From assembly GCA_030595255.1 (NCBI GenBank), contig JAUVDP010000012.1:1-32955 (forward strand): a stretch of DNA of 32,955 bases. The letters run 5' to 3'. The notes below the pieces were generated by a model. The model was not told where the DNA came from, made no database searches, and saw only the letters and a list, made by a program, of their open reading frames with translations. Below, piece after piece: positions 1 to 24,986 of the stretch (positions are counted from its first letter, which is position 1; every line of letters begins with the position of its first letter). A program made the position numbers and the translations under genes. The DNA comes from Mycoplasmatota bacterium (GTDB lineage: Bacteria; Bacillota_I; Bacilli_A; Izemoplasmatales; Izemoplasmataceae).

Positions 1-1207
1 CTTTTACAATTGAATTAGTTAAATATCCTTCGCTAAATTCATCAATTATAATATATCCACTTGCTTCTTTTAAAGAATTAATCATTCCACTTTTCGCAAA
101 AAGTGGAGTTGCGATAAACTCATTATTTATATTACTTATTCTTACTAATTGATACATTCTTCTACCAGAGGGTGAATGTACATTAGTATCTAATCTTGCT
201 TCAAAATATGGAATAGGTAGTATATTATCTAGGTGATAAATTGTATTAACTATTTCATTAATAAATGTATTTAATACAAAGAACGCAGAAGTTGGTTGTC
301 CAGGTAACCCAAAGAATAACTTATTGTTATATTTAGCTATAATACTAGGTTTACCTGGCTTAATACTAATCCCATGAACTAGTAATTCTGCCCCAATGCT
401 TTCTAAAATAGCTAAAGTATAATCTTTATCTCCAACACTACTTCCGCCACTACTAAATACTATATCGCTGTTTTCAAATCCTTTTAAAACAGCTTCTTTA
501 TATGCCTCAAAATCATCATTGATAATCAATGATTCATTTACTACTATATTTTTATTTTTTAGATGATTACTAACAGTGTATGTATTAATATCTCTGATTT
601 CACCAATTAATAGCTCTTCTTTATCTTTAACAATTTCATCACCAGTTGAAATTACTAAAGCATTTAACTTCTCATAAACATTAATTTCTTTAATTCCAAT
701 TGATTTTAAAGCTCCAATTACTAAAGGAGTTATTAATGTATTCTTTTTAACTATTACTTGTCCTTCTAAAATATCACTGCCTTTTAATAAGACATTTTCA
801 TTTATTGAGACACTCTTATTAATTATTACTTCGTCACCTAGTAATTCTGTATTTTCAATCATAACTGCGGCATTTGCCCCTTTTGGCAAATGACCTCCAG
901 TAGGTACATAAACTGTAGTACTAGGAGTAACTATGTCAGTTGCTTCTTTACCCATCAATACTTCTCCAGTTAATTTTAAAATTGACGGAGTTGAAGACGT
1001 TGATAATTTCACACTATTAAAATCAACAGCATATCCATCAACAATACTTCTATTAAAATGAGGTACATCTTCTTTTGATATAATATCTTCAGCACTTACA
1101 TAATTTAAGGCTTCACTTAGTAATACTGTTTTAGTTTTTAAATTGTAATCACTAAAATTATCTTTAAGTAATTTAATTGTTTCATCAATTGATTTAACTA
1201 AGAACAT
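1..1207 (-). CDS. moeA: molybdopterin molybdenumtransferase MoeA (C-terminus runs off the window start)
   Basis: The minus-strand ORF leaves the window, so it is absent from the track. Translation from ATG (rc of 1205-1207), with SD AGGAGG just upstream, gives MFLVKSIDETIKLL..SIVDGYAVD..GGHLPKGANAAVMIENT..SGGSSVGDKDY..GLPGQPTSAF. These are MoeA/gephyrin-E landmarks, and the frame stays open for about 402 codons. The start overlaps the tupC stop by 14 nt. Confidence 0.8.
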   Translation of the reverse strand, partial: MFLVKSIDETIKLLKDNFSDYNLKTKTVLLSEALNYVSAEDIISKEDVPHFNRSIVDGYAVDFNSVKLSTSSTPSILKLTGEVLMGKEATDIVTPSTTVYVPTGGHLPKGANAAVMIENTELLGDEVIINKSVSINENVLLKGSDILEGQVIVKKNTLITPLVIGALKSIGIKEINVYEKLNALVISTGDEIVKDKEELLIGEIRDINTYTVSNHLKNKNIVVNESLIINDDFEAYKEAVLKGFENSDIVFSSGGSSVGDKDYTLAILESIGAELLVHGISIKPGKPSIIAKYNNKLFFGLPGQPTSAFFVLNTFINEIVNTIYHLDNILPIPYFEARLDTNVHSPSGRRMYQLVRISNINNEFIATPLFAKSGMINSLKEASGYIIIDEFSEGYLTNSIVK

Positions 1208-1785
1208 TTTTACCTCCTACCTTGTATTCCACATCTTTTAAATCATCAACAAAAGATTTATTGTGGCTTACAATAATAAAAGTAATTTTATTTTTAAGCT
1301 TTTTAATTAATTGTGTTAATTCATTTATAGACTCTAAATCAAGATGAGTTGTTGGTTCATCTAGTAATACTATATCTGGATTAAAAATAATTGATCTAAT
1401 TATCGATACTTTCATTTTTTCACCTGAAGATAATTTTAATGCATTATTTTCAAGTAAGTGTTCAATATCTAACAACTTAGCATATTCAATAATCTTATCA
1501 TGATATAAACTAATATCTAATTTTCTAACTTTTAAAGGATAAGCAATATTACAGTACGCAGTTCTATTAAAGATAACTGGTTCTTGACTATTATAAGTAA
1601 CGTTAGCATTAATCTTTAATGAACCTTCGTAATCTAAAAATGAAGCAAATACTCTAAGTAATGTTGTTTTACCTGCGCCATTACGTCCACTTATCACAGT
1701 AACTTTATTTTTCTCAAATCTAAAATCTTCAAAGATAAATTCTAAAGATTTCATTTTTACTTTCAAGTTTCTTATCTCAATCATA
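1194..1785 (-). CDS. tupC: tungstate/molybdate ABC transporter ATP-binding protein; short, with no TOBE domain, which fits TupC better than ModC
   Basis: Walker A GRNGAGKTTLL, ABC signature LSSGEKMKVSI, Walker B VLLDEPTTHLD. The likely true start is the internal ATG (MIEIRNLKV) at 1785, with SD GAGGTG 6 nt upstream. The track ORF extends to 1877 only through overlap with tupB. Confidence 0.65.
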
Positions 1786-2460
1786 AAAATCACCTCTAAA
1801 CCTTGCGAGTAAAGTATGTAGTAAGAAAGCAATAGATAGTAAAATGAATCCCATTGCGATAGACATTGAGTATTCACCCATACTATTATTTAAAGCGATA
1901 TAAGTAGTCATAACTCTTGTATCACCTTTAATATTTCCACCCACAAGCATTACTGCCCCTACTTCACTTAAAGCTCTAGAAAACCCTAAGATAATACTCA
2001 TAAATATAAAAGGTTTAGTTTCAATTATTAAGAGAAATATTTTATCAATTTTAGAAGCACCTAAGGTTGTCGCAGTTTCTAAAACTTTCTTTTGAGTTTT
2101 CTCACTTGTAATTATAATATTCCCGATAATAATCGGTAAAACAAGTAATGTTTGAGCTATATACATTGCTGATTTTGTAAATAGTAAATTCATCCCATCA
2201 AACGGTCCAGTAATTAGTAATAGTACTATAAGTCCTAGAACTACTGGAGGTATTCCCATCAAAGTAAATACGACCTTCTTAGTAAACCTCTTTAATTTAA
2301 AGTCGGAAATACTAATTAAGATTCCTAAGAAAGTACCAATAACTGAGGCAGTCAATGTAGCTAAAATTGATATAGTTAAAGACAGAAATATAATCGAATA
2401 TATTTCTGAATCAAAAGATATCAATAACTTAAATGCTTCAATAATACTTTCTAATATCAT
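1777..2460 (-). CDS. tupB: ABC transporter permease (TupB/ModB-like)
   Basis: 227 aa polytopic membrane protein with an EAA-like loop (LGASKIDKIFLLIIETKP). SD GGAGTG lies before the ATG. The gene overlaps tupC on one side and lies 6 nt from tupA on the other. Confidence 0.65.
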   Translation of the reverse strand: MILESIIEAFKLLISFDSEIYSIIFLSLTISILATLTASVIGTFLGILISISDFKLKRFTKKVVFTLMGIPPVVLGLIVLLLITGPFDGMNLLFTKSAMYIAQTLLVLPIIIGNIIITSEKTQKKVLETATTLGASKIDKIFLLIIETKPFIFMSIILGFSRALSEVGAVMLVGGNIKGDTRVMTTYIALNNSMGEYSMSIAMGFILLSIAFLLHTLLARFRGDFYD

Positions 2461-2466
2461 AAATTA

Positions 2467-3252
2467 TCACTCCGCATTAGGATAAAACATCTGTATGTCA
2501 CACATAATAAATTCAGATATTAAAATTTGGATATCACTTCTAAGTATCCAATCATAAAATAAATCAGCATTGTGATCGTCTCTATTATGTAAATCAGTAC
2601 TAACTTTAATAACTCCATACTGATTTACAAGTTCATTTGGATCTTCGTAAGCTACTTCTAATTCAAGATTATCTTCCATAGCACAAAAAGTAGCTATATC
2701 AGTTAAAGTATAATATCCACTAAGAGATGTCATATTTAAAGTAGTTCCCATCCCTTGTCCTGTTTCTTTATACCAATCTCCAAATGTAGATACATCATAT
2801 CCAAATGTATCCCATTGCTTTAATTCCTTCATATGAGTTCCTGAAGAATCTCCACGAGAATAAAAATCAAGTTCATTATCATAGATATAATCAAACGTAG
2901 CTTCAACACTATCTAAATCTAAAGCAACTGGACCCACTATTAAAAAATGATTAAACATCACATTACTTCTCTTTTCTCCATACCCTGCATTCATAAAAAT
3001 CATTTCACTATCATAGTCATGAGTAAATAGAATATCTGCTTCTCCCATTTCTCCCATTTCAAGTGCGGCCCCTGTACCTAAAGCAACTACTTTTACTTTC
3101 ACATCGTATTCTTCTTCAAAATAAGGAAGAATATACTCTAAAAAACCTGAGTTATCTAGAGACGTTGTAGTAACTAAAATTAGTTCTTCTTTGTTACATG
3201 AACTTAAAAATATTGTTAGTAATAAAGTCGTTAATAATAATACTTTTTTCAT
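2467..3252 (-). CDS. tupA: tungstate-binding lipoprotein TupA (substrate-binding protein)
   Basis: Lipoprotein signal MKKVLLLTTLLLTIFLSSC, and the TupA-characteristic TTTS motif (LVTTTSLDNSG). SD GAGGTG precedes the ATG. It is the first gene downstream of the riboswitch. Confidence 0.65.
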   Translation of the reverse strand: MKKVLLLTTLLLTIFLSSCNKEELILVTTTSLDNSGFLEYILPYFEEEYDVKVKVVALGTGAALEMGEMGEADILFTHDYDSEMIFMNAGYGEKRSNVMFNHFLIVGPVALDLDSVEATFDYIYDNELDFYSRGDSSGTHMKELKQWDTFGYDVSTFGDWYKETGQGMGTTLNMTSLSGYYTLTDIATFCAMEDNLELEVAYEDPNELVNQYGVIKVSTDLHNRDDHNADLFYDWILRSDIQILISEFIMCDIQMFYPNAE

Positions 3253-3262
3253 CCTATCACCT

Positions 3263-3303
3263 CAAAAAAAGACTTTTCACGCCAAAAAAGGAGTAAAAAG
3301 TCT
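3263..3303 (-). terminator. intrinsic terminator / riboswitch expression platform directly abutting the tupA RBS
   Basis: On the minus strand the sequence reads AGACTTTT-(21 nt)-AAAAGTCT followed by TTTTTTT. It sits immediately 5' of the GAGGTGATAGG-ATG of tupA. Confidence 0.4.
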
Positions 3304-3304
3304 A

Positions 3305-3398
3305 TAATCCTTTCCAAACGTGGGAGGCACATAAATTTCTTTATATACCCATCGGCTTAAAAGTCATAGATACCCTTAGACTTTTAAGCTCGGAATAC
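3305..3398 (-). ncRNA. molybdenum/tungsten cofactor (Moco/Tuco) riboswitch aptamer
   Basis: The minus-strand RNA reads ..UUCCGAGCUUAAAAGUC..GACUUUUAAGCCGAUGGG..GUGCCUCCCACGUUUGGAAAGG. It carries the hallmark CCGAG, GCCUCCC and GGAAAGG blocks of the Moco RNA motif (compare the E. coli moaA leader ..GCCUCCCGUAUCUGGAAAGG). An internal stem GCUUAAAAGUC/GACUUUUAAGC is present. It lies upstream of tupABC-moeA. The element is short, which suggests the P3-lacking tungsten-associated variant. Confidence 0.55.
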
Positions 3399-3411
3399 TT
3401 TTATTAATTAT

Positions 3412-3420
3412 ATTATACCA
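3412..3420 (-). promoter_or_regulatory. extended -10 element (TGGTATAAT) for the riboswitch-tupABC-moeA transcript
   Basis: The reverse complement of 3412-3420 is TGGTATAAT, placed about 15 nt upstream of the aptamer 5' end. Confidence 0.35.
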
Positions 3421-3473
3421 CATAAAAGCGTTTTCTGACATTTCTTATTTATAATAATTAAGCTCGATTTTAA

Positions 3474-3502
3474 TTGTAAAAATGTTTACAATATATTATA
3501 AT
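3474..3502 (+). promoter_or_regulatory. sigma-A-like promoter for the aor operon (TTGTAA-17-TATAAT)
   Basis: TTGTAA at 3474-3479, a 17-nt spacer, and TATAAT at 3497-3502. The RBS AGGGAGG is at 3524-3530. Confidence 0.3.
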
Positions 3503-3538: not shown

Positions 3539-5323
3539 ATGTTTGGATACATGGGTAAACTTCTAAGAATCAACTTAACGAATAACTCAATAAAAGTTGA
3601 AGACTTAGATTTAGAACTTGCAAAGAAATTTGTTGGAGGTCGAGGACTAGGAACTAAGATGCTTTACGATGAAATCGATCCTAAAATTGATGCTTTAAGT
3701 CCAGAAAATAAATTATTCTTCATAAATGGACCAATGAGTGGAACTCCTACCCCAACAGGTGGACGTTACATGGTTGTTACAAAATCACCTTTATCAGGAA
3801 CTATTGCTTCATCAAACTCAGGAGGAACTTGGGGTGCACGTCTTAAGTATGCAGGGTATGATGGAATTATCGTTGAAGGTAAAGCTGATATGCCTGTTTA
3901 TATCACAGTTACTGAAGAAAATGTTGAAATTAATGATGCATTTGATTTATGGGGTAAAACAGTTGGAGAAACTACAGATATATTACAAAAAGAAAAGAAA
4001 ACTAATGTATTAGCTATCGGACCTGCAGGAGAAAGATTAAGTAAAATAGCTGCTATCATGAATGATAAAGATAGAGCTGCAGGACGTAGTGGTGTTGGAG
4101 CAGTAATGGGAAGTAAAAACCTTAAAGCTATCGTAGTAACAGGAAACTTAAAAGTTAGTTTATTTGATGAAGAAGCTACTAAAGCTAACAACAAAGAAGC
4201 TACACAAAAACTTAAAGATAATCCAGTTACTGGTGAAGGATTACCAGCTTACGGAACTGCAGTACTAGTTAATGTAATTAACGCTAACGGTATGTTCCCA
4301 ACAAACAATTTCCAAGAAGGTGTATTTGCTAACGCAGAAGATATTTCAGGAGAAACTCTTGCTGAAAAGTATTTAGTTAGAAAAGACCCTTGTCACAGAT
4401 GTCCTATTGGATGTGGACGTTACACTAAAACTGATAAAGTTGAGGGTGGAGGTCCTGAATATGAAACTATCTGGGCATTTGGAGCTGATTGTGGAGTTAA
4501 AGATTTAGCTAAAATTATCGAAGCTAACTATTGGTGTAACCAATATGGTATCGATACTATTTCAGCTGGAGCTACTCTCGCTGCTGCAATGGAATTAAGC
4601 CAAATAGGTTTACTAGATCATGTAGATTTTGAAGGTCATAAACTTGAATTCGGTAACGATGACGCTATCGTTTATTGGACTAAGAAATTAGCTCTAAGAG
4701 AAGGATTCGGAGATGAAATGGCTGATGGATCTTATAGACTATGTGAAAAATATGGTCGTGCTGATTTATCAATGTCAGTTAAGAAACTAGAAATCCCAGC
4801 ATACGACCCTCGTGGTGTTCAAGGGCATGGATTAAACTATGCTACTTCAAACCGTGGTGGATGTCATGTACGTGGATATATGATTAGCCCTGAAATTTTA
4901 GGTTTACCAGCTAAGCTTGAAAGACAAGAACTTAAAGATAAACCTTTCTGGACTAAAACATTCCAAGATTTAACTGCATTTATTGACTCAACTGGTCTTT
5001 GCTTATTTACTTCATTTGCACTTGGTGCTGATGACTATGCTAAGATTTTTAATAGTATAGTAGGAACAAGCTGGAATGGTGACGATGTACTTAAAGCCGG
5101 AGAAAGAATTTATAACATTGAAAAACAATTTAACATAGAAGCAGGAATTTTACCTGAAGAAGATACTCTGCCTGAGAGATTCTTAAAAGTACCAATGCCT
5201 GCTGGTCCTACAGAAGGACATGTCCATCGCTTAAGCGAACTATTACCTGAATATTATGAATTAAGAGGTTGGGACAGTAAAGGTGCACCAACAAAAGAAA
5301 GATTAGAAGATTTAGGATTATAA
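3539..5323 (+). CDS. aor: tungsten-containing aldehyde:ferredoxin oxidoreductase (AOR family)
   Basis: 594 aa. The N-terminus (MFGYMGKLLRINLTN..VGGRGLG) is AOR-type, and the Cys motif DPCHRCPIGCGRY matches the AOR [4Fe-4S] site. The gene sits beside tungstate uptake genes. The SD is strong. Confidence 0.9.
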   Translation: MFGYMGKLLRINLTNNSIKVEDLDLELAKKFVGGRGLGTKMLYDEIDPKIDALSPENKLFFINGPMSGTPTPTGGRYMVVTKSPLSGTIASSNSGGTWGARLKYAGYDGIIVEGKADMPVYITVTEENVEINDAFDLWGKTVGETTDILQKEKKTNVLAIGPAGERLSKIAAIMNDKDRAAGRSGVGAVMGSKNLKAIVVTGNLKVSLFDEEATKANNKEATQKLKDNPVTGEGLPAYGTAVLVNVINANGMFPTNNFQEGVFANAEDISGETLAEKYLVRKDPCHRCPIGCGRYTKTDKVEGGGPEYETIWAFGADCGVKDLAKIIEANYWCNQYGIDTISAGATLAAAMELSQIGLLDHVDFEGHKLEFGNDDAIVYWTKKLALREGFGDEMADGSYRLCEKYGRADLSMSVKKLEIPAYDPRGVQGHGLNYATSNRGGCHVRGYMISPEILGLPAKLERQELKDKPFWTKTFQDLTAFIDSTGLCLFTSFALGADDYAKIFNSIVGTSWNGDDVLKAGERIYNIEKQFNIEAGILPEEDTLPERFLKVPMPAGPTEGHVHRLSELLPEYYELRGWDSKGAPTKERLEDLGL

Positions 5324-5328
5324 ATTTG

Positions 5329-5358
5329 AAAAGGAATGAATAGGAATATTCATTCCTT
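5329..5358 (+). other. perfect 12-bp intercistronic hairpin between aor and the radical-SAM gene, with no U-tract
   Basis: AAGGAATGAATA-GGAA-TATTCATTCCTT, followed by CTTAATATG, the start of the radical-SAM gene. Confidence 0.4.
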
Positions 5359-5364
5359 CTTAAT

Positions 5365-6393
5365 ATGATAAAAAAAATATATATAGAACTCACAAATAGA
5401 TGTAATCTAACTTGTGATATGTGTTACAGGCATACGTGGGATAATATCCTTGGTGATATGGACAAAGAAACAATCAATAAATTATATAATCAAATAGAAA
5501 AACCTATCACCATGGTATTTGGTGGTATAGGAGAACCAACTGTTGCAAAGAATTTTGAATATGCAGTAGATAAGTTTAAAGAATTTGATTTAGAAATTAC
5601 AACAAACGGAATTATGAGTGAAGAAAAACTCTTTTTAATATGTCAAAATTTTAAAAATGTTATAATAAGTGTAGATGGTACAGAGGCAGATTATTATGAT
5701 ATTAGGAAAACAGATTTTAATAATGTTAAAAGAACAATCGAATACATTTATAATTACCGTAAAAAAAACGATGTGAAATTACCAGAAATGGAATTTGCTT
5801 TTGTAATATCAAAAGTTAACAAAGAAGCAATATATAAAGTTATTGACTGTGCAAGTAGAAACAATGTTAAAAAAATATTGATGTCTCATCTTCTTCCACA
5901 AAATTTACATCAACAAAATGAAATATGTTATACAGAATGTTATAACGAATTAGGACATGAATATGTTAAATTAGTTAATAAATATGCATACTTTGGAATG
6001 AGAGTTGTAGTATCTTTTCCATTTATGGAAATTAAAACAGATAGAATATGTCACTTCGTAGAAAACAACTATACATATATTGACTATACTGGTGAAGTTA
6101 GCCCTTGCTATCGATTTGCGAATACATATACAGAATGGGTTTTCGGAAGAGAAAAAACGGTACTAAAACATTCGTTTGGGAATATCTTAAAAGACAGTAT
6201 AAATGATATTTATAATAGTAAAAAGTACAAGGTATTTAGAGACTCAGTTTTACATGTAGATCATCCTAGTTGTGTTGATTGTGATTTGCGTGATGGATGT
6301 AGTTACGTTGATGACACAGAGTTTGACTGCTTAGGTAATTCTCCTAGTTGTGGAGACTGTTTATGGAATAGAAATATAATAAGATGTACGTAG
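5365..6393 (+). CDS. radical SAM protein with a C-terminal SPASM/twitch-like Cys-rich domain (Cmo-like AOR-associated maturase candidate)
   Basis: CNLTCDMC (CxxxCxxC) at residues 13-20. The C-terminus has CVDCDLRDGC..CLGNSPSCGDC, which supplies auxiliary-cluster cysteines. It follows aor directly and precedes moaD. Confidence 0.8.
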   Translation: MIKKIYIELTNRCNLTCDMCYRHTWDNILGDMDKETINKLYNQIEKPITMVFGGIGEPTVAKNFEYAVDKFKEFDLEITTNGIMSEEKLFLICQNFKNVIISVDGTEADYYDIRKTDFNNVKRTIEYIYNYRKKNDVKLPEMEFAFVISKVNKEAIYKVIDCASRNNVKKILMSHLLPQNLHQQNEICYTECYNELGHEYVKLVNKYAYFGMRVVVSFPFMEIKTDRICHFVENNYTYIDYTGEVSPCYRFANTYTEWVFGREKTVLKHSFGNILKDSINDIYNSKKYKVFRDSVLHVDHPSCVDCDLRDGCSYVDDTEFDCLGNSPSCGDCLWNRNIIRCT

Positions 6394-6405
6394 GTGATAT
6401 TAGAA

Positions 6406-6639
6406 ATGATTACAGTAAAATTGTATTCTGCAGTAAGAAAATATGGTGGGAAAGAAGTTCTTTTTGATCATAAAGATGGAATGACAGTTAGAGATATTGT
6501 TGAAGACTTAAAAATACCTCTAAAAGAGTTATCTATTATAATATTAGATAATTTTGATAGTACTCCTGACATTATGTTAGATAGAACAGTTAAAGACGGA
6601 GCATTACTTCATCTGTTTCCTCCAATGGCAGGAGGTTAA
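6406..6639 (+). CDS. moaD: MoaD/ThiS-family sulfur-carrier protein with a C-terminal Gly-Gly
   Basis: 77 aa ending ..LFPPMAGG. SD AGGTGA lies 8 nt before the ATG. The track ORF starts at GTG 6394, but the ATG at 6406 is the likelier start. Confidence 0.7.
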   Translation: MITVKLYSAVRKYGGKEVLFDHKDGMTVRDIVEDLKIPLKELSIIILDNFDSTPDIMLDRTVKDGALLHLFPPMAGG

Positions 6640-6661
6640 AATTATCAAATATAGTAGAAAT

Positions 6662-7315
6662 ATGGGAATAATGAATGATTTTGAACTTGAAAAGTTTAAA
6701 AAGACTAAAGCTTTAATCGTAGGTGTAGGTGGACTAGGTGGATACATTGCATCTAGTTTAGTTAGAATCGGGGTTAGCTCAATTACTATTGTTGATTTTG
6801 ATAAGTTTGATGATTCAAATTTAAATCGTCAACTATTCGCAACTTCAAAAACAATTAATAAATCTAAAGTAGAAGTTGTTAAACTGGAGCTATTAGATAT
6901 TAACCCAGAGTTAAATATCATTGCTATTAATTCAAAATTAGATGAATTATTTGATAAAACTTATTTTGAAGGAATAGATGTTGTATTTGATGCAGTTGAT
7001 AATATAAAATCTAAAGTTTTAATTGAAAAATATTGTTCTATATTTAATATTCCACTTATTCATGGCGCTATAGCGGGATGGTACGGACAACTAGGTATAA
7101 TAATGCCTGGTAGTAACATCTTAAGTGAATTATATAAAGATAAAGAAAAAGGTATTGAATCTGTCTTAATGAGTCCTACTTTTACTCCTGGTATAGTAGC
7201 TAATATGATGATTAGTGAGTTTGTAAAATTTGTATTAAAAAAAGAAGCTCTCGTTAATCAAATTCTTTATATAGACCTTCTTGATCATGAATATCGAATT
7301 ATATACAAAAAATAA
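6662..7315 (+). CDS. ThiF/MoeB-family E1-like adenylyltransferase (short form, with no rhodanese domain or Zn-Cys pairs)
   Basis: ALIVGVGGLGGYIASSLVRIGV (GxGxxG) and VDFDKFDDSNLNRQ, the hallmark of MoeB/ThiF. It is immediately downstream of moaD. Confidence 0.7.
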   Translation: MGIMNDFELEKFKKTKALIVGVGGLGGYIASSLVRIGVSSITIVDFDKFDDSNLNRQLFATSKTINKSKVEVVKLELLDINPELNIIAINSKLDELFDKTYFEGIDVVFDAVDNIKSKVLIEKYCSIFNIPLIHGAIAGWYGQLGIIMPGSNILSELYKDKEKGIESVLMSPTFTPGIVANMMISEFVKFVLKKEALVNQILYIDLLDHEYRIIYKK

Positions 7316-9324: not shown

Positions 9325-10416
9325 TCAAAATATCACCATATTATCCTCGTTGTGTGTAGTTTTTCCGTACCAATTTCTTTTATATCTTGCATCTTTAAAA
9401 TTACCTATTTTTTTAATCTTTTGTTCATTTAATAGATTCTTAATAACTTTTTTAATAGTTTCATGTGAAATATCAGGCCATACGAGATGAATCTCTTTTC
9501 TTGAAATAGGATTCCAACTCTTCTTAATTGTTTCTTCAATTCTAAATTTCTTACTTTTCTTTTCGTTATCTACAATTCTAAAACGGCTATTTAACTCAAT
9601 ATGGCAAGAATATAAAGATTCTAGAAAGTTTTCAATAAAAGGATTATAGTCATTACTATTATCATCCCAATTTATTGAAGATAATCTTATAGATTCATAA
9701 TATTCAGATTTATAGTTGTTAATTTGTTTCTCAAATGAAACAAATTCTCCAACGTTATATTCATTTCTAAATAATAGTAATAATGATAATAACCTTGATA
9801 TTCTACCATTACCTTCACTAAATGGTTGAATACAAAGGAAATCGAAAATTACACAAGGTATCAATAACAATCTAGGAATAGCTCTGTCATCTAGCGCTTC
9901 TTTAAAGCCTCTAACTAGCAGTTCCATCGCCCCATTAGTATCTTGTGAACTTACAGGGTTAAGAATAACTTTCCTAGTTCCATTTGGTAAATCCTCGGTA
10001 AATAAAATATCATTATCTTTATAAGCCCCTACTGAGTTTAGTCCTGTATGTAATAATAGTGTTTTATGAAAATCTCTTATAATATATTCATTAAATTGAA
10101 AGCTGTCATAATTAGTAAAAATCTCATTTATTACATCACTATAACCTAAAATTATTCCCTCACTCCGATTAACAGGATCTATGTGTTTGTCAATAAGTGA
10201 TTCAATTCTTTTATCAGTTGCAAAAATACCGTCAATAGCGTTAGATGCTTTTACAGATTGAGTTTTTGAAATATCTCGTAGATTACTAAATACTTTTGGA
10301 TACATTTCACTATTAATCATTCCAACTGCTTGAATTTTTTCAATTGATACTAATAATGACAAAACATTATTAGATATACGGTCTGTCTTTAAAAATGAAT
10401 AATCATAAACTTTCAC
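9325..10416 (-). CDS. Fic/DOC-family protein with a degenerate catalytic motif (QPFSEGNGRISR instead of HPFxEGNGRxxR)
   Basis: ..CIQPFSEGNGRISRLL, where the codon is CAA (Gln) in the place of His. The likely start is GTG 10416, with SD AGGAGTGA 7 nt upstream. The track ORF extends to GTG 10455, which is directly preceded by an in-frame TAG and has no SD. Confidence 0.7.
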   Translation of the reverse strand: MKVYDYSFLKTDRISNNVLSLLVSIEKIQAVGMINSEMYPKVFSNLRDISKTQSVKASNAIDGIFATDKRIESLIDKHIDPVNRSEGIILGYSDVINEIFTNYDSFQFNEYIIRDFHKTLLLHTGLNSVGAYKDNDILFTEDLPNGTRKVILNPVSSQDTNGAMELLVRGFKEALDDRAIPRLLLIPCVIFDFLCIQPFSEGNGRISRLLSLLLLFRNEYNVGEFVSFEKQINNYKSEYYESIRLSSINWDDNSNDYNPFIENFLESLYSCHIELNSRFRIVDNEKKSKKFRIEETIKKSWNPISRKEIHLVWPDISHETIKKVIKNLLNEQKIKKIGNFKDARYKRNWYGKTTHNEDNMVIF

Positions 10417-10430
10417 ATAATCACTCCTTA

Positions 10431-10520
10431 CTAGGTATATTTTATCATATTGCACCTAGTAAATCAATAATAATTCTTTTTACTAGGTATTTAATACAAT
10501 GTATTACCTAGTAAAATAAA
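10431..10520. promoter_or_regulatory. two tandem copies of a 9-bp inverted repeat (TACTAGGTA-N15-TACCTAGTA) over the fic promoter and 5'UTR
   Basis: Copy 1 is at 10431-10467 and overlaps the fic RBS region. Copy 2 is at 10484-10516. Both were read directly from the sequence. Confidence 0.3.
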
Positions 10521-11707: not shown

Positions 11708-11791
11708 TGGTGCGGTCGATGAGATTTGAACTCACACATCCTAAGATACTACCCCCTCAAGGTAGCGCGTCTGCCGTTCCGCCACGACCGC
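11708..11791 (-). tRNA. tRNA-Leu (anticodon GAG), class II with a long variable arm, CCA encoded
   Basis: The reverse complement is GCGGTCGTGGCGGAACGGCAGACGCGCTACCTTGAGGGGGTAG..GTGAGTTCAAATCTCATCGACCGCACCA. Acceptor pairing is GCGGTCG/CGACCGC. The anticodon stem is CTACC/GGTAG with loop TTGAGGG. The T-loop is TTCAAAT. Confidence 0.85.
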
Positions 11792-13890: not shown

Positions 13891-13999
13891 TATTTAAAAT
13901 CATTACAATTCCAGAATTGTTTGTATAGAAAGTAAGCGTTTTTATGTTATGATAGTAATAAGGAATTATTTTGTACATCAAAACACTTTGGAGGCATAT

Positions 14000-15542
14000 T
14001 ATGAATAAAAACATATTAGACAAAATTAAAGTTGAAACACTAACGGCTAATCCTGAATTAAATGAGCCACATAAGAACTTACATGAGAAAGAAGTTAGAG
14101 TAGTTCTTAAGAACTGTGACATTATTAATCCTGAAAATATTAACCATTATATTGCTAAAGATGGTTATTTTGCGATTAATCAGATTTTAACAGGAATGTC
14201 ACAAGAAGATGTAATTAAAGTTGTATCTGATTCTGGACTTCGTGGTCGTGGTGGTGGTGGATTCCCTACAGGTAGAAAATGGAACTTTGCTTATAAAAAT
14301 GAAAATGATACGAAATATATAATATGTAATGCTGATGAAGGTGATCCAGGGGCATTTATGGATCGTTCAGTACTTGAAAAAGATCCACACAGTATTCTTG
14401 AAGGTATGATAATTGCGGGATTCGCAATTGGAGCTGAAACTGGGTTTATTTATGTTAGAGCTGAATACCCACTAGCAGCAGAAAGATTACAAAAAGCAAT
14501 TGATGATGCACTTGAACTTAATATCTTAGGTGAAAATATCTTTGGTACTAAGTTTAATTTTAAAATTGAAATTAGATTAGGTGCTGGGGCATTTGTTTGT
14601 GGTGAAGAAACAGCGTTAATTGCTTCAATAGAAGGTAATAGAGGCATGAGTAAAAATAAACCTCCTTATCCAGCTATTGAAGGATTATATGGTAAACCTA
14701 CAATTATTAATAACGTTGAAACGTTAGCTAATATATCTCAAATAATATTAAAAGGTAGTAAATGGTTTAGATCATTTGGTACAGAAAAATCTCCAGGAAC
14801 TAAAGTATTTGCTTTAGCTGGTAAAATTAAGAATACTGGACTTATTGAAGTTCCTATGGGAATAACTTTAGGTGAAATTATTCATGATATCGGTCGTGGT
14901 GTTGGGAACAAGAGAAAATTTAAAGCAGTTCTTACTGGTGGACCTAGTGGTGGGTGTTTAACTGAAAAACATTTGGATCAAGAAGTTGATTTTGATACAC
15001 TAGTAGCCCTTGGAAGTATGATGGGCTCAGGTGGAATGATTGTTTTAGATGATCATGACTGTATGGTTGATATTGCTAAATTCTATTTAGATTTTAGTGT
15101 AGATGAAAGTTGTGGTAAATGTACTCCTTGTAGAGAAGGTACTATCCAACTTTATAAATTATTAGAAAAAATCACTAATGGTGAAGGAACTATAGCTGAT
15201 TTAGATAAACTTAAAAAACTATCTAAAGCAGTTAAGAAAACTTCTTTATGTGGACTTGGTATGACAGCTCCAAATCCTATCTTATCAACATTAGAACATT
15301 TCTACGATGAGTATTTAGCTCATGTTACTCATAAAGTATGCCCAGCAAGTTCTTGTAGAGGGTTAATTGAAAAATATATAATCCAAGATAACTGTGTTGG
15401 ATGTACAATATGTGCTAAAAGATGCCCTGTTCAGTGTATAACTGGCGAGAGAAAGGGTCTTCACGTTATTGATCAAGATGCTTGTATCCAATGTGGAGAA
15501 TGTTTTGCATCATGTAATTTTGATGCAATAATTACTAAGTAG
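14000..15542 (+). CDS. NuoF-like NAD(H)/FMN/[4Fe-4S] subunit of a formate dehydrogenase complex (beta), with an extra C-terminal 2x[4Fe-4S] ferredoxin domain
   Basis: GLRGRGGGGFPTGRKW is the NuoF FMN site. CGKCTPCREG is present. The C-terminus has CVGCTICAKRCP..CIQCGECFASC. SD GGAGG lies before ATG 14000. The track start at 13971 is upstream of the SD. Confidence 0.85.
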
Positions 15543-15544
15543 AG

Positions 15545-18235
15545 GTGACTACGATGAAGATGATAAATTTAAAAATAAACGATCAAGAAATAGTTGTTGA
15601 AGCAGGGAAAAATATTTTAGATTATTGTGTAGAACTTGGAATAGATATTCCAACATTTTGTCATGATGAAAGAATCAAATCTGAAGGTGCATGTAGAATG
15701 TGTGTTGTTGAAGTTAAAGGAATAAATAGGCTACTAGCTAGTTGTGCTACTCCTGCAACTGATGGAATGGAAATTAAAACTCATTCACCTGAAGTTATGG
15801 AAGCTAGAAAAGATGTTCTTGAATTAACTTGGGCAAGTCATCCAAATGATTGCGTTGTATGTGATGCTAATGGTGATTGTAAACTTCAAGATTATTCATA
15901 TGAATATAATTTAACTTCTATTCCTGAATATGATGGACATAAAAGAAACTTTAGTATTGATGATTCTAATAAATTCTTTTATATCGATCCTGAAAAATGT
16001 ATTTTATGTGGTAAATGTGTTTATGTTTGTAAAGATCTTCAAGGTGTTGAAGCTTTAGGATTTAATCAACGTGGTCACGATACATTTATTTCATTCGCTT
16101 TTGATAATGGTATGGAACAATCAAATTGTGTTAGTTGTGGTAACTGTGTTAGTGTTTGTCCAACTGGTGCATTAATGGAAAAAAGTAACGTAATGTTTAG
16201 AAGTTGGGAAACTAAGAAAACAAGAACTACTTGTCCATATTGCGGTGTTGGTTGCCAATTTGATATCGTAACTAAAGGAGAACAAGTCGTTAGAATAGAC
16301 CCAGCTCCTGGAACTCCTAATGAAGGATTATTATGTGTTAAAGGTAAGTTTGCTTATAAATTCATTAACCATAAAGGTAGATTAACTAGTCCTTTAATTA
16401 AAGAAAACGGTGAATTTAGAGAAGCTTCATGGGATGAAGCTTATGATTTAATCGCTAGTAAATATACTGAATTAAATAATAAATACGGTTCAGCAACATT
16501 CGCAGGTCTTGCGAGTGCTAAATGTACTAATGAAGAAAACTATATGTTCCAAAAATTATTCCGTGCAGCAATTGGTACAAACAATGTAGATCACTGCGCT
16601 AGACTATGTCATGCTTCTACTGTTGCTGGACTAGCTACTACTTTAGGTAGTGGTGCAATGACTAACAGTATCGCTGAAGTAAAAGATCATGATGTAATAT
16701 TTGTTATTGGATCTAATACAACTGAAACACATCCTGTTATTGGATCATTTATGAAACAAGCGATTGCTAAAGGTTCTAAAATAATTGTTGCTGATCCTCG
16801 TGAAATTGAATTAGCGGAAGGTGCTGATGTATTCCTAAAAATACTACCTGGAACTAATGTACCTTTATTAAACGCAATGATGAAAGTAATTTATAATGAA
16901 AATCTTCATGATATAGATTATATTTCAGAAAGAACAGAAAACTTTGAAACTACTTTAGAAACAATACAAAACACTGATATTGAAGAAGCCGCAGAAATTT
17001 GTGGTATAGACGCAGAAGATATTAGAAAAGCAGCTAGAATTTATGCTGCTGGAAATAAAGCTGGAATATATTATGCTATGGGTATTACTCAACATTCACA
17101 AGGTACCAACAATGTTAAGAGTATAGCTAACTTAGCACTACTATGCGGTAATGTAGGAATTGAATCTGGTGGAATCAACCCGCTACGTGGACAAAATAAT
17201 GTTCAAGGTGCTTGTGATATGGGTGGATTACCTGATGTATTCCCAGGATATCAAAAAGTGTTTAATGATGAAGCACGAGCTAAGTTTGAAAAAGCTTGGG
17301 GTGTTAAATTAGATAATAAAGTTGGATTAAGTTTACCTCATGTACTTGATGGTGCTTATGAAGACCAAATTAGATTCTTATATATAATGGGTGAAAATCC
17401 TGTAGTAAGTGATCCAGATACAACACATGTTAAGAAATCATTAGACAACTTAGACTTCTTAATAGTTCAAGACTTATTCATGACTGAAACTGCTGAAATG
17501 GCGGACGTTATTTTACCTGCTTCTTCATACGCAGAAAAAGAAGGAACTTTCACTAATACTGAAAGACGTGTTCAAATGATAAGACCAGCAATTAAACCTG
17601 TTGGTGATAGTAAAGCTGATTATATAATCATTCAAGAAATCATGAATAAAATAGGATATAATCAACCTATATTAACTCCAAGTGAAATTATGGATGAAGT
17701 TGCTACTCTAACTCCTATCTACGGAGGGGTTAGTTATGATAGAATACAAGAATTGGGATTACAATGGCCAGTTTTAGACCATAATCATCCTGGTACCAAG
17801 TACCTACACAAAGATAAGTTCGCACGTGGTCTAGGTCTATTTAGTGAAGTAGAATTCGCAGAAGCTAAAGAATTACCTGATGAAAACTTCCCTATAGTTC
17901 TAACTACAGGACGTGTATTATATCACTTCCATACAATTTCAATGACAGGTAAAAACGAAGAAATTAATGAAATAGTTCCTGAAAACTTTATTGAAATTAG
18001 TCCAAAAACAGCAGAAAGTTATAAACTTAAACACATGGATCACGCTAGTATTTCATCGAGACGTGGAACAACAAAAGCAGTTGTTCACGTAACTGATAAA
18101 ATCGGAGACGGAGTTATGTTTATGCCATTCCATTTCGCTGATGGAGCAAATATGTTAACAAATACTGAATTAGACGCAACGTGTAATATCCCTGAACTTA
18201 AAGTTTGCGCTGTTCAGATTGATGGAAAGTTATAG
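15545..18235 (+). CDS. fdhA: formate dehydrogenase catalytic subunit (Mo/W-bis-PGD), Cys-type, with a NuoG-like N-terminal Fe-S region
   Basis: The N-terminus has a 2Fe-2S site (CHDE..CRMC) and ferredoxin CxxCxxCxxxCP motifs. The MopB cluster is TTCPYCGVGCQFD. The active site ARLCHASTVAGL has Cys-His where selenoprotein homologs have Sec-His. There is no in-frame TGA. Confidence 0.9.
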   Translation: MTTMKMINLKINDQEIVVEAGKNILDYCVELGIDIPTFCHDERIKSEGACRMCVVEVKGINRLLASCATPATDGMEIKTHSPEVMEARKDVLELTWASHPNDCVVCDANGDCKLQDYSYEYNLTSIPEYDGHKRNFSIDDSNKFFYIDPEKCILCGKCVYVCKDLQGVEALGFNQRGHDTFISFAFDNGMEQSNCVSCGNCVSVCPTGALMEKSNVMFRSWETKKTRTTCPYCGVGCQFDIVTKGEQVVRIDPAPGTPNEGLLCVKGKFAYKFINHKGRLTSPLIKENGEFREASWDEAYDLIASKYTELNNKYGSATFAGLASAKCTNEENYMFQKLFRAAIGTNNVDHCARLCHASTVAGLATTLGSGAMTNSIAEVKDHDVIFVIGSNTTETHPVIGSFMKQAIAKGSKIIVADPREIELAEGADVFLKILPGTNVPLLNAMMKVIYNENLHDIDYISERTENFETTLETIQNTDIEEAAEICGIDAEDIRKAARIYAAGNKAGIYYAMGITQHSQGTNNVKSIANLALLCGNVGIESGGINPLRGQNNVQGACDMGGLPDVFPGYQKVFNDEARAKFEKAWGVKLDNKVGLSLPHVLDGAYEDQIRFLYIMGENPVVSDPDTTHVKKSLDNLDFLIVQDLFMTETAEMADVILPASSYAEKEGTFTNTERRVQMIRPAIKPVGDSKADYIIIQEIMNKIGYNQPILTPSEIMDEVATLTPIYGGVSYDRIQELGLQWPVLDHNHPGTKYLHKDKFARGLGLFSEVEFAEAKELPDENFPIVLTTGRVLYHFHTISMTGKNEEINEIVPENFIEISPKTAESYKLKHMDHASISSRRGTTKAVVHVTDKIGDGVMFMPFHFADGANMLTNTELDATCNIPELKVCAVQIDGKL

Positions 18236-18244
18236 GTGAATAAA

Positions 18245-18739
18245 ATGAGTATATATGTATTAGAAGAACAATTAAACGAATTTAAAATTGAAGTTATAGA
18301 CAAATACAGAGATACAAAAAGTCCTTTAATGCAAATTTTACAAGAATCACAAAAAAGATATGGTTGTGTTCCAGTAGAAGTCCAAGAATTTATTAGTAAA
18401 GAAATGAACATAACTACAGCTAAAATTAATGGAGTAGTATCATTTTACTCAATGTTTAGTTTGAAACCAAGTGGTAGACATATCTTAGGTGTTTGTACAG
18501 GTACAGCGTGTTATGTTAAAGGAGCTTCAAGACTAGTTGAAAGAGTTGAAGCTTTACTTGATACTGAGTATGGTTCTACAACTGAAGATGGATGTTTTAC
18601 TTTAGCTCATACTAGATGTGTTGGAGATTGTGCTCAAGCTCCAGTAATTATGGTAAATGACGAATTTAATGGTAAAGTAACTAGTGATGATATTCCAAAA
18701 ATAATTGCTAGACATCGAGGAAAGAATTGTAAAAAATAG
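18245..18739 (+). CDS. NuoE-like [2Fe-2S] thioredoxin-fold subunit (gamma) of the formate dehydrogenase
   Basis: CTGTACYVKG...CVGDCAQAP is the NuoE Cx4C..Cx3C pattern. SD AGGTGA lies 5 nt before ATG 18245. The track start at GTG 18236 overlaps the fdhA stop. Confidence 0.8.
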   Translation: MSIYVLEEQLNEFKIEVIDKYRDTKSPLMQILQESQKRYGCVPVEVQEFISKEMNITTAKINGVVSFYSMFSLKPSGRHILGVCTGTACYVKGASRLVERVEALLDTEYGSTTEDGCFTLAHTRCVGDCAQAPVIMVNDEFNGKVTSDDIPKIIARHRGKNCKK

Positions 18740-24159: not shown

Positions 24160-24161
24160 AA

Positions 24162-24986
24162 TTATCTCCCCTTTTTAATTCTATATTTTATAGTCTTTAA
24201 CTTTTTTTCTGCTTCAATCTTTATATGTTTCTTAAATACTGGGTCACTATTTATTGAATCTTTAACTGGGAACTCATCAATTCTTTTAATTCCAAAATAA
24301 ATTCCGCTTATTAACCCTATTACTATTACTAAATGAATGTTATATTCAAAGTCATTTATAGTTTCTGATACTATTTTAGTACCATCTAAAATAGATGATA
24401 ATAATAATACAGTTAATCCTATTAACAAAAATGATATTGATGATTTTACAAACTCTTTTATTATTAACGAAAATGAACTTCTAAATAATCTATTTGAATT
24501 AATTCTATTAATATTAAAATTTGGTAAATACACTTTTTCTACATTATTAGTAATTAATTCAGGCAGTTTCTTATTTTTATAATCATCTTTATATACATCC
24601 AACATTATCTTACTCATATCTTTCCCAATCTTTTTATCGACTAATGTTTGATATATTTCTAATGTTGTTTCTTTAGGAAAATCTCTAGTTAATAACATTA
24701 GCTTGTTTTCCTCGTAATAAACTCTTAAAAATGCATATTCTATATACTTGTCAACATATTTCTTACTTGCTCCACTATAATCCTTTTTTATGTTAGCAAG
24801 ATAATACGCATTCCTAATAACCTCTTTAAGTTCTTTTGAATACTTGTCTTTATGTTCATTAGGTAATATTTTCTTAATGAAAACTTCATCATCTAGTTGT
24901 TGTTTCTCATATAATATATTAGCTCCACATGAATCACATATTAATGTCATTTCATTAAGTCTTTTATTACATTCTCTACATATCAT
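24162..24986 (-). CDS. N-terminal zinc-ribbon protein with two C-terminal TM helices (YdjG-like membrane anchor candidate)
   Basis: MICRECNKRLNEMTLICDSCGAN (CxxC-x12-CxxC). TM helices at ..ISFLLIGLTVLLLSSIL.. and ..IHLVIVIGLISGIYFGI... SD GAGGGGGA. It overlaps the TIR gene by 11 nt. Confidence 0.5.
   Translation of the reverse strand: MICRECNKRLNEMTLICDSCGANILYEKQQLDDEVFIKKILPNEHKDKYSKELKEVIRNAYYLANIKKDYSGASKKYVDKYIEYAFLRVYYEENKLMLLTRDFPKETTLEIYQTLVDKKIGKDMSKIMLDVYKDDYKNKKLPELITNNVEKVYLPNFNINRINSNRLFRSSFSLIIKEFVKSSISFLLIGLTVLLLSSILDGTKIVSETINDFEYNIHLVIVIGLISGIYFGIKRIDEFPVKDSINSDPVFKKHIKIEAEKKLKTIKYRIKKGR

What the first reader, a model, noticed from the sequence alone, without database searches (positions are those of the whole stretch)
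3263..3420. Moco/Tuco riboswitch with a terminator platform controlling tupABC-moeA, back-to-back with a tungsten AOR operon
The minus-strand leader carries the conserved Moco-RNA blocks CCGAG...GCCUCCC-N6-GGAAAGG. The last two reproduce almost exactly the GCCUCCCGUAUCUGGAAAGG of the E. coli moaA element. A rho-independent terminator follows (8-bp stem + U7) whose U-tract abuts the tupA SD, so ligand binding would terminate transcription before the RBS. The element is compact, about 95 nt. It precedes tungstate-uptake genes and lies next to a tungsten AOR. These are the features reported for the P3-lacking class proposed to sense the tungsten cofactor rather than Moco. This is a strong candidate for a Tuco-specific riboswitch, and ligand specificity for that class remains experimentally thin.
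Basis: partly seen in the sequence, partly recalled or inferred. Interest (0 to 1): 0.7.

Follow-up and report, generated by a model that had tools for sequence, protein, structure and literature searches.

The report
Tungsten-cofactor-type riboswitch before tungstate uptake genes
This is a real but ordinary member of the known Moco/Tuco riboswitch family (the form lacking stem P3), placed ahead of tungstate-uptake genes, where it most likely stops transcription when the cell has enough metal-pterin cofactor.

Summary
Rfam RF01055 (Moco/Tuco aptamer) matches window 3291-3407 (minus strand) at 81.4 bits against a gathering score of 36 (E 1.8e-18). The P3 hairpin is deleted. An 11-bp terminator hairpin and a 7-T run follow, and the T run ends directly at the SD of a tupA-tupB-tupC-moeA operon. 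A tungsten-type AOR operon lies divergently upstream.

The source is a close relative of Candidatus Izimaplasma HR2. Among 60 metagenomic tupA loci scanned, 47 carry RF01055, and no copy has P3, so the architecture is common. In the Izemoplasmatales clade, P2, P4 and the terminator covary strongly.

I add an antiterminator model. CACGUU-GGAAAGGA (P5 loop plus aptamer core) pairs with UCCUUUUU-GGCGUG (the conserved terminator loop). This helix is the MFE of truncated transcripts in all 14 clade leaders, is nearly isoenergetic with the terminator state, and is separated from it by about 18.6 kcal/mol. That fits a kinetically controlled OFF switch.

Tuco rather than Moco selectivity remains inferred from context only. 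The class has been described (Regulski 2008; E. limosum 2024). Verdict: a new member of a known kind, of modest interest.

The parts
3412..3441 (-). Predicted sigma-70-type promoter of the tup operon: -35 ATGTCA (3441-3436), an 18-nt spacer and an extended -10 TGgTATAAT (3420-3412). The inferred transcription start is around 3405.
   Evidence: The consensus scan gives 10 of 12 matches with TG before the -10. The block is conserved in five related leaders. The start site is inferred and not mapped.
3291..3407 (-). RF01055 Moco/Tuco aptamer without P3.
- P1: 3397-3392 with 3310-3305 (5 of 6 pairs, one U-U).
- P2: 3389-3379 with 3365-3355, with a CUAAG...UAUG receptor-like bulge.
- P4: 3350-3340 with 3335-3325, capped by the GAAA tetraloop 3339-3336.
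- P5: CC 3324-3323 with GG 3315-3314.
- Conserved core: GGAAAGG 3315-3309.
   Evidence: cmscan gives 81.4 bits against a gathering score of 36, E 1.8e-18, with P3 deleted. On 14 clade leaders 84.8% of cells are paired, 18 pairs change on both sides, and 0 of 500 shuffles reach the observed values.
3278..3322 (-). Proposed antiterminator. CACGUU (3322-3317) pairs with GGCGUG (3283-3278), and GGAAAGGA (3315-3308) pairs with UCCUUUUU (3292-3285). The helix uses the P5 loop, the P5 3' strand, the aptamer core and the first three bases (GGA) of the P1 3' strand. It encloses the terminator 5' strand in its loop.
   Evidence: It is the MFE of transcripts truncated at 3287-3275. The same helix is the MFE in all 14 clade leaders, z = -1.8 to -4.7 against shuffled downstream sequence. 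Its main helix is 88.5% paired, 7 pairs change on both sides, and 0 of 500 shuffles reach the observed values. The barrier to the terminator state is 18.6 kcal/mol. It is inferred and not shown experimentally.
3264..3303 (-). Intrinsic terminator. The stem is AGACUUUUUAC (3303-3293) with GUGAAAAGUCU (3280-3270), with optional inner CC/GG pairs, followed by the T run 3270-3264.
   Evidence: The hairpin folds at -16 kcal/mol, z = -6.2. In relatives 95.7% of cells are paired, all 13 stem pairs change on both sides, and 0 of 500 shuffles reach the observed values. Cognate strands beat swapped strands, with 0 of 2000 permutations as low.
3250..3263 (-). Shine-Dalgarno GAGGUG (3263-3258) and the tupA start codon ATG (3252-3250).
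   Evidence: Read directly from the sequence. The ORF is listed.
2467..3252 (-). tupA-like tungstate-binding lipoprotein (261 aa). It has a signal peptide with an LSSC lipobox, a TTTS motif and a SRGDSSGTH motif.
   Evidence: The best NCBIfam hit is NF041772 TupA, 182.6 bits, below the equivalog cut-off of 400. It matches PDB 3LR1 (tungstate-binding protein) and 5MY5. Several sources name homologues as tungstate transport substrate-binding protein.
1777..2460 (-). tupB-like ABC permease.
   Evidence: NF038017 at 180.5 bits (above its cut-off) and NF041773 TupB at 127.7 bits.
1194..1787 (-). ABC transporter ATPase (tupC-like, short form without a C-terminal domain).
   Evidence: Pfam ABC_tran, with WtpC and TupC among the NCBIfam hits.
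1..1207 (-). moeA (molybdopterin metal-insertion enzyme). It overlaps the end of tupC and runs off the window's left edge.
   Evidence: Pfam MoeA_N, MoCF_biosynth and MoeA_C; NF011068 at 368 bits.
3539..7315 (+). Divergent operon, given as context:
- aldehyde:ferredoxin oxidoreductase (3539-5323);
- W-cofactor oxidoreductase radical-SAM maturase (5365-6393);
- MoaD/ThiS-like protein (6394-6639);
- MoeB/ThiF-like protein (6662-7315).
It has no riboswitch of its own.
   Evidence: AFOR_N and AFOR_C at 276 and 501 bits, TIGR04317 at 340.9 bits, ThiS and ThiF. No RNA family match appears in its leader even at E <= 1. The divergent AOR is conserved in 7 related loci.

Best explanation
The leader of the tupA-tupB-tupC-moeA operon is a P3-less member of the Moco/Tuco riboswitch family (RF01055). 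It works as a transcriptional OFF switch.

Transcription starts near 3405 from an extended -10 promoter.

When the metal-loaded pyranopterin cofactor binds (most probably the tungsten cofactor, given the genes controlled), it holds P1, P5 and the GGAAAGG core inside the aptamer. The downstream hairpin 3303-3270 then closes, and RNA polymerase terminates in the T run 3270-3264, just before the SD.

Without ligand, the 3' third of the aptamer (CACGUU-GGAAAGGA) pairs with the newly made UCCUUUUU-GGCGUG. This traps the terminator's 5' strand in a loop and sequesters the first bases of its 3' strand, so polymerase reads through into the tungstate-uptake and metal-insertion genes.

Shown here: family membership, absence of P3, the terminator, its conservation and covariation, and the gene context.

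Inferred: the antiterminator, the kinetic control, the transcription start and the identity of the ligand.
For: - RF01055 scores 81.4 bits against a gathering score of 36, with P3 deleted.
- Aptamer P2 and P4 covary across 14 clade leaders.
- The terminator folds at -16 kcal/mol with z = -6.2. In relatives it is 95.7% paired and all 13 stem pairs change on both sides.
- The antiterminator is the MFE of truncated transcripts and of all 14 clade leaders. It is 84.3% paired overall and 88.5% in its main helix, against 46-66% for slid controls.
- The terminator loop it uses is nearly invariant while the stems vary.
- The ON state (-38.3) and the OFF state (-40.2 to -41.4) are near-isoenergetic. 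The ON-to-OFF barrier is 18.6 kcal/mol, and the unliganded aptamer converts to the antiterminator over 5.8 kcal/mol.
- The genes controlled are TupA-like, TupB-like, an ATPase and MoeA. The divergent neighbour is an AOR with the W-cofactor maturase, and that synteny recurs in relatives.
- Every tupA-associated copy examined lacks P3.
- Literature: P3-less RNAs correlate with Tuco use, and terminator platforms exist in the family (PMC2408646). In E. limosum, terminator-type P3-less copies are up-regulated under W limitation (PMC11725836).
Against: - There is no ligand-binding or expression data for this RNA. W-versus-Mo selectivity of the P3-less class has never been shown by direct binding (PMC10265488, PMC2408646).
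- P1 is weak. The window forms 5 of 6 pairs, and in the clade only UCC:GGA is conserved (64% of cells paired).
- The 5' side of the antiterminator is fixed by the aptamer, so its covariation is modest (14 cells with double changes). The cognate advantage is small (-12.9 against -12.0 kcal/mol, 45 of 2000 permutations). The alignment was also fitted to the structure.
- At full length the MFE contains the terminator even without ligand, so regulation must be kinetic, and that was not tested.
- The simple terminator scanner reported no site. The likely reason is that, read as one uninterrupted stem, the hairpin has a 12-nt loop, above the scanner's limit of 8.
- TupA, TupB and the maturase score below NCBIfam equivalog cut-offs.
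- The lineage reportedly also has Mo enzymes (PMC8289736).
Confidence: 0.8

Rival explanations
1. The RNA and mechanism are the same, but the aptamer is not tungsten-selective. It would respond to Moco, to both Moco and Tuco, or to a shared pterin feature, and would couple tup-moeA expression to the total metal-pterin pool.
For: - No direct binding data exist for any P3-less RNA (PMC2408646, PMC10265488).
- MoeA, which is in the regulated operon, acts on the shared MPT precursor.
- Izemoplasmatales are reported to encode Mo-dependent xanthine dehydrogenases (PMC8289736, PMC8397711).
- The window also encodes an FdhA-like bis-pterin enzyme whose metal is unknown.
Against: - The controlled transporter is TupA-type and matches solved tungstate-binding proteins.
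- The divergent neighbour is an AOR with a W-cofactor maturase.
- The P3-less/W correlation is near-perfect in Regulski 2008.
- All 48 copies at tupA loci seen here lack P3, while the E. coli moaA copy has it.
- In E. limosum, W limitation de-represses terminator-type copies (PMC11725836).
Confidence: 0.3
2. Control is mainly translational (SD sequestration), as reported for E. limosum tupABC, and the hairpin with its T run is incidental.
For: - Related leaders L017, L022, L024 and L026 use the same CUCCUUU block as an anti-SD and have no terminator.
- In the full-length MFE the SD region pairs weakly with the aptamer's CCUCCC.
Against: - In the window the SD lies outside every strong helix, directly after the T run.
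- The hairpin plus U tract is conserved with full covariation in the clade.
- CCUCCC:GAGG is only 4 bp and long-range.
Confidence: 0.07
3. It is an ON switch. Ligand-stabilised extended P1 (leader AAAAG 3402-3398 with CUUUU 3300-3296, the outer P1 of the Rfam model) would sequester the terminator's 5' strand and allow read-through.
For: - The Rfam alignment places outer P1 pairs on the terminator 5' strand.
- The 116-nt truncated fold shows AAAAGU:ACUUUU.
- Leader:T5 complementarity is better in cognate than in swapped pairs, with 4 of 2000 permutations as low.
Against: - Outer P1 adds only about 0.6 kcal/mol, and its barrier to the terminator is 1.8 kcal/mol.
- The pairing averages only -3 kcal/mol and rests largely on one co-varying position in related sequences.
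- It leaves the conserved terminator loop, which is complementary to the aptamer core, unexplained.
- Positive feedback on W uptake is biologically unlikely, and known family members repress (PMC2408646, PMC11725836).
Confidence: 0.03
4. It is a chance resemblance or a decayed relic with no regulatory function.
For: P1 is weak, and the closest relative (HR2) carries two mismatches in P2.
Against: - E is 1.8e-18.
- The element is conserved at the same position in relatives down to about 50% TupA identity, with compensatory changes.
Confidence: 0.01

Closest known systems
P3-less ('Tuco') class of the Moco RNA motif, Rfam RF01055 (Regulski et al. 2008, PMC2408646)
   Same: It shares P1, P2 (with a tetraloop-receptor-like bulge), P4 (GAAA loop), P5 and the conserved CCGAG / GCCUCCC / GGAAAGG blocks. 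It has no P3. It is associated with tungstate transport and MPT metal insertion. Terminator-type expression platforms are described for the family.
   Different: There is no categorical difference. The host lineage (Izemoplasmatales, wall-less Bacilli relatives) is not among the phyla listed in 2008. P1 is unusually short and weak in this clade.
E. coli moaA Moco riboswitch
   Same: It belongs to the same family (103.6 bits). The GCCUCCC...GGAAAGG blocks are identical, and both are OFF switches.
   Different: E. coli keeps P3 and spans 145 nt. It acts by burying the RBS in P1 (translational control), controls pterin synthesis, responds to Moco and is not repressed by the W form (PMC2408646).
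Eubacterium limosum P3-less RF01055 riboswitches (PMC11725836)
   Same: They are P3-less copies upstream of tupABC, an AOR-type WOR1 operon and others. The focA and fetABC1 copies use terminator hairpins and are de-repressed under W limitation. Complementary segments overlap an aptamer helix and the platform.
   Different: In E. limosum the tupABC copy is predicted to sequester the RBS, whereas here it is a terminator. In E. limosum the AOR operon has its own riboswitch, whereas here the AOR operon has none.

Membership tests
RF01055 Moco/Tuco riboswitch aptamer | Covariance-model score at or above Rfam's gathering score | tested here: met
   81.4 bits against 36, E 1.8e-18, full model 1-135.
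RF01055 Moco/Tuco riboswitch aptamer | P1 helix closing the aptamer | tested here: met
   The window forms 5 of 6 pairs (UAUUCC with GGAUUA, one U-U). The helix is weak in the clade: only UCC:GGA is conserved and 64% of cells are paired.
RF01055 Moco/Tuco riboswitch aptamer | P2 helix with a tetraloop-receptor-like bulge (CUAAG...UAUG) | tested here: met
   The window has an 11-bp perfect P2 and the receptor sequence. Nine of the 11 P2 pairs change on both sides in the clade.
RF01055 Moco/Tuco riboswitch aptamer | P4 helix capped by a GNRA (GAAA) tetraloop | tested here: met
   P4 is 11 bp with a GAAA loop. 94.2% of cells are paired and 7 pairs change on both sides.
RF01055 Moco/Tuco riboswitch aptamer | Conserved unpaired core and P5 (CCGAG, GCCUCCC-N6-GGAAAGG) | tested here: met
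   All blocks are present at the expected positions and are invariant in the clade.
RF01055 Moco/Tuco riboswitch aptamer | Location in the 5' leader of Moco/Tuco transport, synthesis or use genes | tested here: met
   It lies upstream of tupA-tupB-tupC-moeA.
RF01055 Moco/Tuco riboswitch aptamer | Direct, selective binding of the metal-pterin cofactor | not testable with these tools
   This needs anoxic binding or probing assays. It has not been achieved for the family by direct binding according to PMC2408646 and PMC10265488.
P3-less (proposed Tuco-sensing) subclass | Absence of the P3 hairpin between P2 and P4 | tested here: met
   The P3 model positions are deleted, and only CGAU links P2 to P4. 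The E. coli control retains P3.
P3-less (proposed Tuco-sensing) subclass | Association with tungsten-specific genes or organisms | tested here: met
   The TupA-type binding protein matches PDB 3LR1. An AOR and a TIGR04317-like maturase are adjacent. All 48 copies at the 47 tupA loci examined are P3-less.
P3-less (proposed Tuco-sensing) subclass | Response to the W cofactor but not the Mo cofactor | not testable with these tools
   There are no data for this RNA. The only evidence is indirect expression data in E. limosum (PMC11725836).
Intrinsic (rho-independent) terminator | Stable hairpin immediately followed by a U tract, upstream of the regulated ORF | tested here: met
   An 11-bp stem at -16 kcal/mol, z = -6.2, is followed by 6-7 U. 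It is conserved with covariation. The simple scanner did not list it, probably because the 12-nt loop exceeds its limit.
Intrinsic (rho-independent) terminator | Observed transcript 3' ends at the U tract | not testable with these tools
   This requires Term-seq or in vitro transcription.

The most novel reading that the evidence does not exclude
This P3-less aptamer is a truly tungsten-selective pterin sensor working in a lineage that, according to the literature, also runs molybdenum enzymes (xanthine dehydrogenase). Tungstate uptake and W insertion would then be regulated independently of the Mo branch by an RNA that tells W-pterin from Mo-pterin. The compact aptamer, the clear terminator and the defined antiterminator would make it a convenient in vitro termination-assay substrate for finally testing that selectivity.
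Probability: 0.45. Interest if true: 0.55.

Novelty: new member of a known kind. Interest (0 to 1): 0.3.

Why it matters
The element correctly marks a tungsten-centred regulon (tungstate uptake, metal insertion and a neighbouring AOR) in Izemoplasmatales, free-living wall-less relatives of Bacilli. It shows that feedback control of W cofactor supply by RF01055 extends to this lineage.

Whether P3-less RNAs really discriminate Tuco from Moco has been an open question since 2008. This copy is a clean candidate for testing it: a 93-nt aptamer, a strong terminator and a mapped antiterminator. Dozens of equivalent candidates exist, however, so it offers no unique leverage.

Tried and rejected
1. 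Antiterminator between the P2 5' strand (AAAAGUCUA, 3385-3377) and the terminator 5' strand (UAGACUUUU, 3304-3296; 9 of 9 complementary). Rejected: the pairing breaks in L008, L009 and L012, and the state costs about 23 kcal/mol more than the alternative (-15.3 against -38.3).

2. Outer-P1/leader pairing with the terminator 5' strand as a functional ON element. It adds about 0.6 kcal/mol and has a 1.8 kcal/mol barrier to the terminator. It is kept only as an unexplained weak signal.

3. The innermost UA:UA pairs of the predicted antiterminator. Not supported (38.7% paired).

4. A second riboswitch for the AOR operon or the FDH cluster. None was found, even at E <= 1.

5. SD masking by the aptamer's CCUCCC. 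It is only 4 bp and long-range, so it was dismissed.

6. The simple terminator scan found nothing. This is explained by its loop-length rule, not by absence of the hairpin.

7. An exact-sequence look-up of TupA found no record. The nearest genome is Ca. Izimaplasma HR2, with TupA 91% and AOR 99% identical.

8. MAFFT alignment of the platform was out of register in the U runs. It was replaced by CM-guided alignments, which lean towards the structure imposed on them.

9. The palindrome at 3473-3492 as a Rex-type operator. One match in the window is not above chance at 2 mismatches or fewer, and there was no exact match in the loci. It remains a lead only.

10. A literature search for Izimaplasma plus tungsten returned nothing.

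Full report
**Observation.** It carries a TGgTATAAT extended -10, then UAUUCCGAGC, then GCCUCCC-ACGUUU-GGAAAGG, then a hairpin and a run of seven T that ends directly at GAGGUG and the ATG at 3252. Rfam's RF01055 model (now named 'Molybdenum/Tungsten riboswitch aptamer') matches 3291-3407 at 81.4 bits against a gathering score of 36, E 1.8e-18. The match covers the full model, and the 15 positions of the P3 hairpin are deleted. As a control, the E. coli moaA leader scores 103.6 bits over 145 nt with P3 present. The window matches 16 of those 20 positions, and the two conserved blocks are identical. One detail needs correcting. The terminator stem is 11 bp (AGACUUUUUAC 3303-3293 with GUGAAAAGUCU 3280-3270), not 8, at about -16 kcal/mol and z = -6.2.

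**Surroundings.** Four tightly packed genes lie downstream on the minus strand:
- a TupA-like lipoprotein (2467-3252);
- a TupB-like permease (1777-2460);
- an ABC ATPase (1194-1787);
- MoeA (1-1207, running off the window).

The TupA-like protein's best solved relatives include the Geobacter tungstate-binding protein 3LR1 and 5MY5. It scores below NCBIfam's equivalog cut-off, so metal selectivity is not established.

A divergent operon lies on the plus strand. It encodes an aldehyde:ferredoxin oxidoreductase, a protein close to the 'tungsten cofactor oxidoreductase radical SAM maturase' family (340.9 bits, cut-off 380), a MoaD/ThiS-like protein and a MoeB/ThiF-like protein. That operon has no RNA-family match, even at E <= 1.

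**Source and relatives.** The nearest genome is Candidatus Izimaplasma HR2, with TupA 91% and AOR 99% identical. HR2 and a more distant Izemoplasmatales MAG carry the same P3-less element before tupA. Among metagenomic tupA loci, RF01055 was found in 18 of the 20 closest, 11 of the next 20, and 18 of 20 further loci. All copies span 109-141 nt. The longer ones carry insertions in the distal part of P2, and P2 and P4 are always separated by only a few bases, so none has P3. This architecture is therefore common. Two tupA homologues (L013, L014) have no riboswitch. The divergent AOR recurs in seven related loci at 75-99% identity.

**Structure support.** On 14 clade leaders the aptamer structure is 84.8% paired, 18 pairs change on both sides, and none of 500 shuffles reaches the observed values. 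Slid controls give 35-49%. P2 and P4 carry the covariation and P5 is invariant. P1 is weak, because only UCC:GGA is conserved. The terminator was realigned with a covariance model. It is 95.7% paired and all 13 stem pairs change on both sides. Swapping 5' and 3' strands between sequences destroys the pairing, with 0 of 2000 permutations as low as the cognate mean.

**Mechanism.** I folded the nascent transcript at successive lengths.
- At 3303 the MFE is the aptamer with P1.
- Once 3287-3275 have been made, P1 and P5 are replaced by a long helix in which CACGUU (P5 loop) pairs with GGCGUG and GGAAAGGA pairs with UCCUUUUU.
- When the terminator's 3' strand is complete, the MFE returns to aptamer plus terminator.

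The 3' strand of this antiterminator is the terminator's loop. That explains why the loop is nearly invariant in the clade while the stems vary. The same helix is the MFE in all 14 clade leaders, z = -1.8 to -4.7 against shuffled downstream sequence. Its main helix is 88.5% paired. Changes on the 3' side (U to C) keep the pairing with the fixed GGAAAGGA, and the outer helix changes on both sides.

The antiterminator state (-38.3 kcal/mol) and the terminator state (-40.2 to -41.4) are near-isoenergetic. The estimated refolding barriers are below.

| Transition | Barrier (kcal/mol) |
|---|---|
| Antiterminator to terminator | 18.6 |
| Unliganded aptamer to antiterminator | 5.8 |
| Outer P1 to terminator | 1.8 |

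Together these describe a kinetically controlled OFF switch. Ligand holds the aptamer's 3' third, the terminator forms, and transcription stops before the SD. Without ligand the antiterminator forms first and polymerase reads through. The family match, the terminator and the conservation are shown. The antiterminator, the kinetics, the transcription start and the ligand are inferred.

**Alternatives examined.**
- A 9 of 9 complementarity between the P2 5' strand and the terminator 5' strand is not conserved and is energetically poor.
- The Rfam model's outer P1 places the A-rich leader on the terminator 5' strand. Cognate pairs are slightly better than swapped ones (4 of 2000 permutations), but the pairing is worth only about -3 kcal/mol. 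It adds 0.6 kcal/mol and is displaced over a 1.8 kcal/mol barrier, so it cannot make this an ON switch.
- Purely translational control is unlikely here, because the SD lies outside the strong helices. Related leaders (L017, L022, L024, L026) do use the same CUCCUUU block as an anti-SD.

**Comparison with what is known.** Regulski et al. 2008 defined the Moco RNA motif. They noted that 58 of 176 copies lack P3 and that these correlate almost perfectly with tungsten use. They also reported that some copies are followed by intrinsic terminators (PMC2408646). A 2024 study of Eubacterium limosum analysed five P3-less copies, including one before tupABC. It reported de-repression of terminator-type copies under W limitation (PMC11725836). 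Reviews still describe the ligand evidence as indirect (PMC10265488). The window's element meets every testable defining feature of the family and of the P3-less subclass. Ligand selectivity cannot be tested here. One caveat for the 'Tuco-specific' label is that Izemoplasmatales are reported to encode Mo-dependent xanthine dehydrogenases (PMC8289736, PMC8397711). The window itself also encodes an FdhA-like bis-pterin enzyme. The lineage may therefore use both metals.

**Verdict.** The observation and the interpretation are correct. The element is a new member of a known, already analysed kind. The clade-specific antiterminator model is a useful but routine addition. Interest is modest, at 0.3.

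Noticed in passing
window 3473-3492: A perfect inverted repeat ATTGTAAA-N4-TTTACAAT overlaps the -35 of the predicted AOR promoter (TTGTAA-17-TATAAT, 3474-3502). Its half-sites are kept in L001 and L005 but not in L004 or L006. From memory it resembles Rex-type operators (TTGTGAA-N4-TTCACAA), and Rex is reported to control Tuco synthesis genes in E. limosum (PMC11725836). It is not above chance on the window scan.
   Followed up: partly
window 13971-18739: A NuoF-like, FdhA-like (896 aa molybdopterin oxidoreductase) and NuoE-like cluster, probably an NAD-linked formate dehydrogenase and a second pterin-cofactor enzyme near the W locus. The active-site position is Cys355-His (ARLCHAST). A weak SECIS_3 match (25.5 bits, gathering score 63, E 0.13) starts at that codon, 16604-16662. 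It may be a relic of a selenocysteine ancestor, or it may reflect coding-sequence similarity.
   Followed up: partly
L053 675-796 and 875-996; L078 671-790 and 865-985: Two tupA loci from metagenomes carry tandem P3-less RF01055 aptamers in one leader.
   Followed up: no
L013 1-418; L014 1-341: These tupA homologues (55-56% identical) have a plain promoter and SD and no RF01055 element. Riboswitch control of tupA is therefore not universal in this group.
   Followed up: partly
L017, L022, L024, L026 (leaders downstream of GGAAAGG): These leaders have the same aptamer but an SD-sequestering platform. Their pyrimidine block (CUCCUUU, UCCUUUC or CCCCU) can pair either with the aptamer's GGAAAGG or with the SD. 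It is a translational version of the same three-way logic.
   Followed up: partly
L001 1307-1423 (Ca. Izimaplasma HR2), also L003 and L005: P2 carries two adjacent non-canonical pairs (A-A and C-C) where the window's P2 is perfectly paired. The rest of the element is identical.
   Followed up: no
window 3398-3402 with 3296-3300: The leader AAAAG is complementary to CUUUU in the terminator 5' strand (the Rfam model's outer P1). Cognate pairs are slightly better than swapped ones (4 of 2000 permutations), but the pairing is energetically negligible. Its role, if any, is unexplained.
   Followed up: yes
window 3421-3441: The promoter spacer of the tup operon (AGAAAACGCTTTTATG) is conserved across five relatives. 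It contains an A4-CGC-T4 pseudo-palindrome. Whether a protein binds there was not examined.
   Followed up: no
window 23296-27015: A 679-aa TIR-domain protein (24976-27015) lies next to a protein with no family match (24162-24986) and an SPFH/Band-7 protein with a zinc ribbon (23296-24159). This could be a defence-type cluster.
   Followed up: no
window 11708-11791: tRNA-Leu (GAG) on the minus strand.
   Followed up: yes
window 9325-10455 and 30292-32649: A Fic/DOC-domain protein, and a dCache-GGDEF-EAL signalling protein.
   Followed up: no
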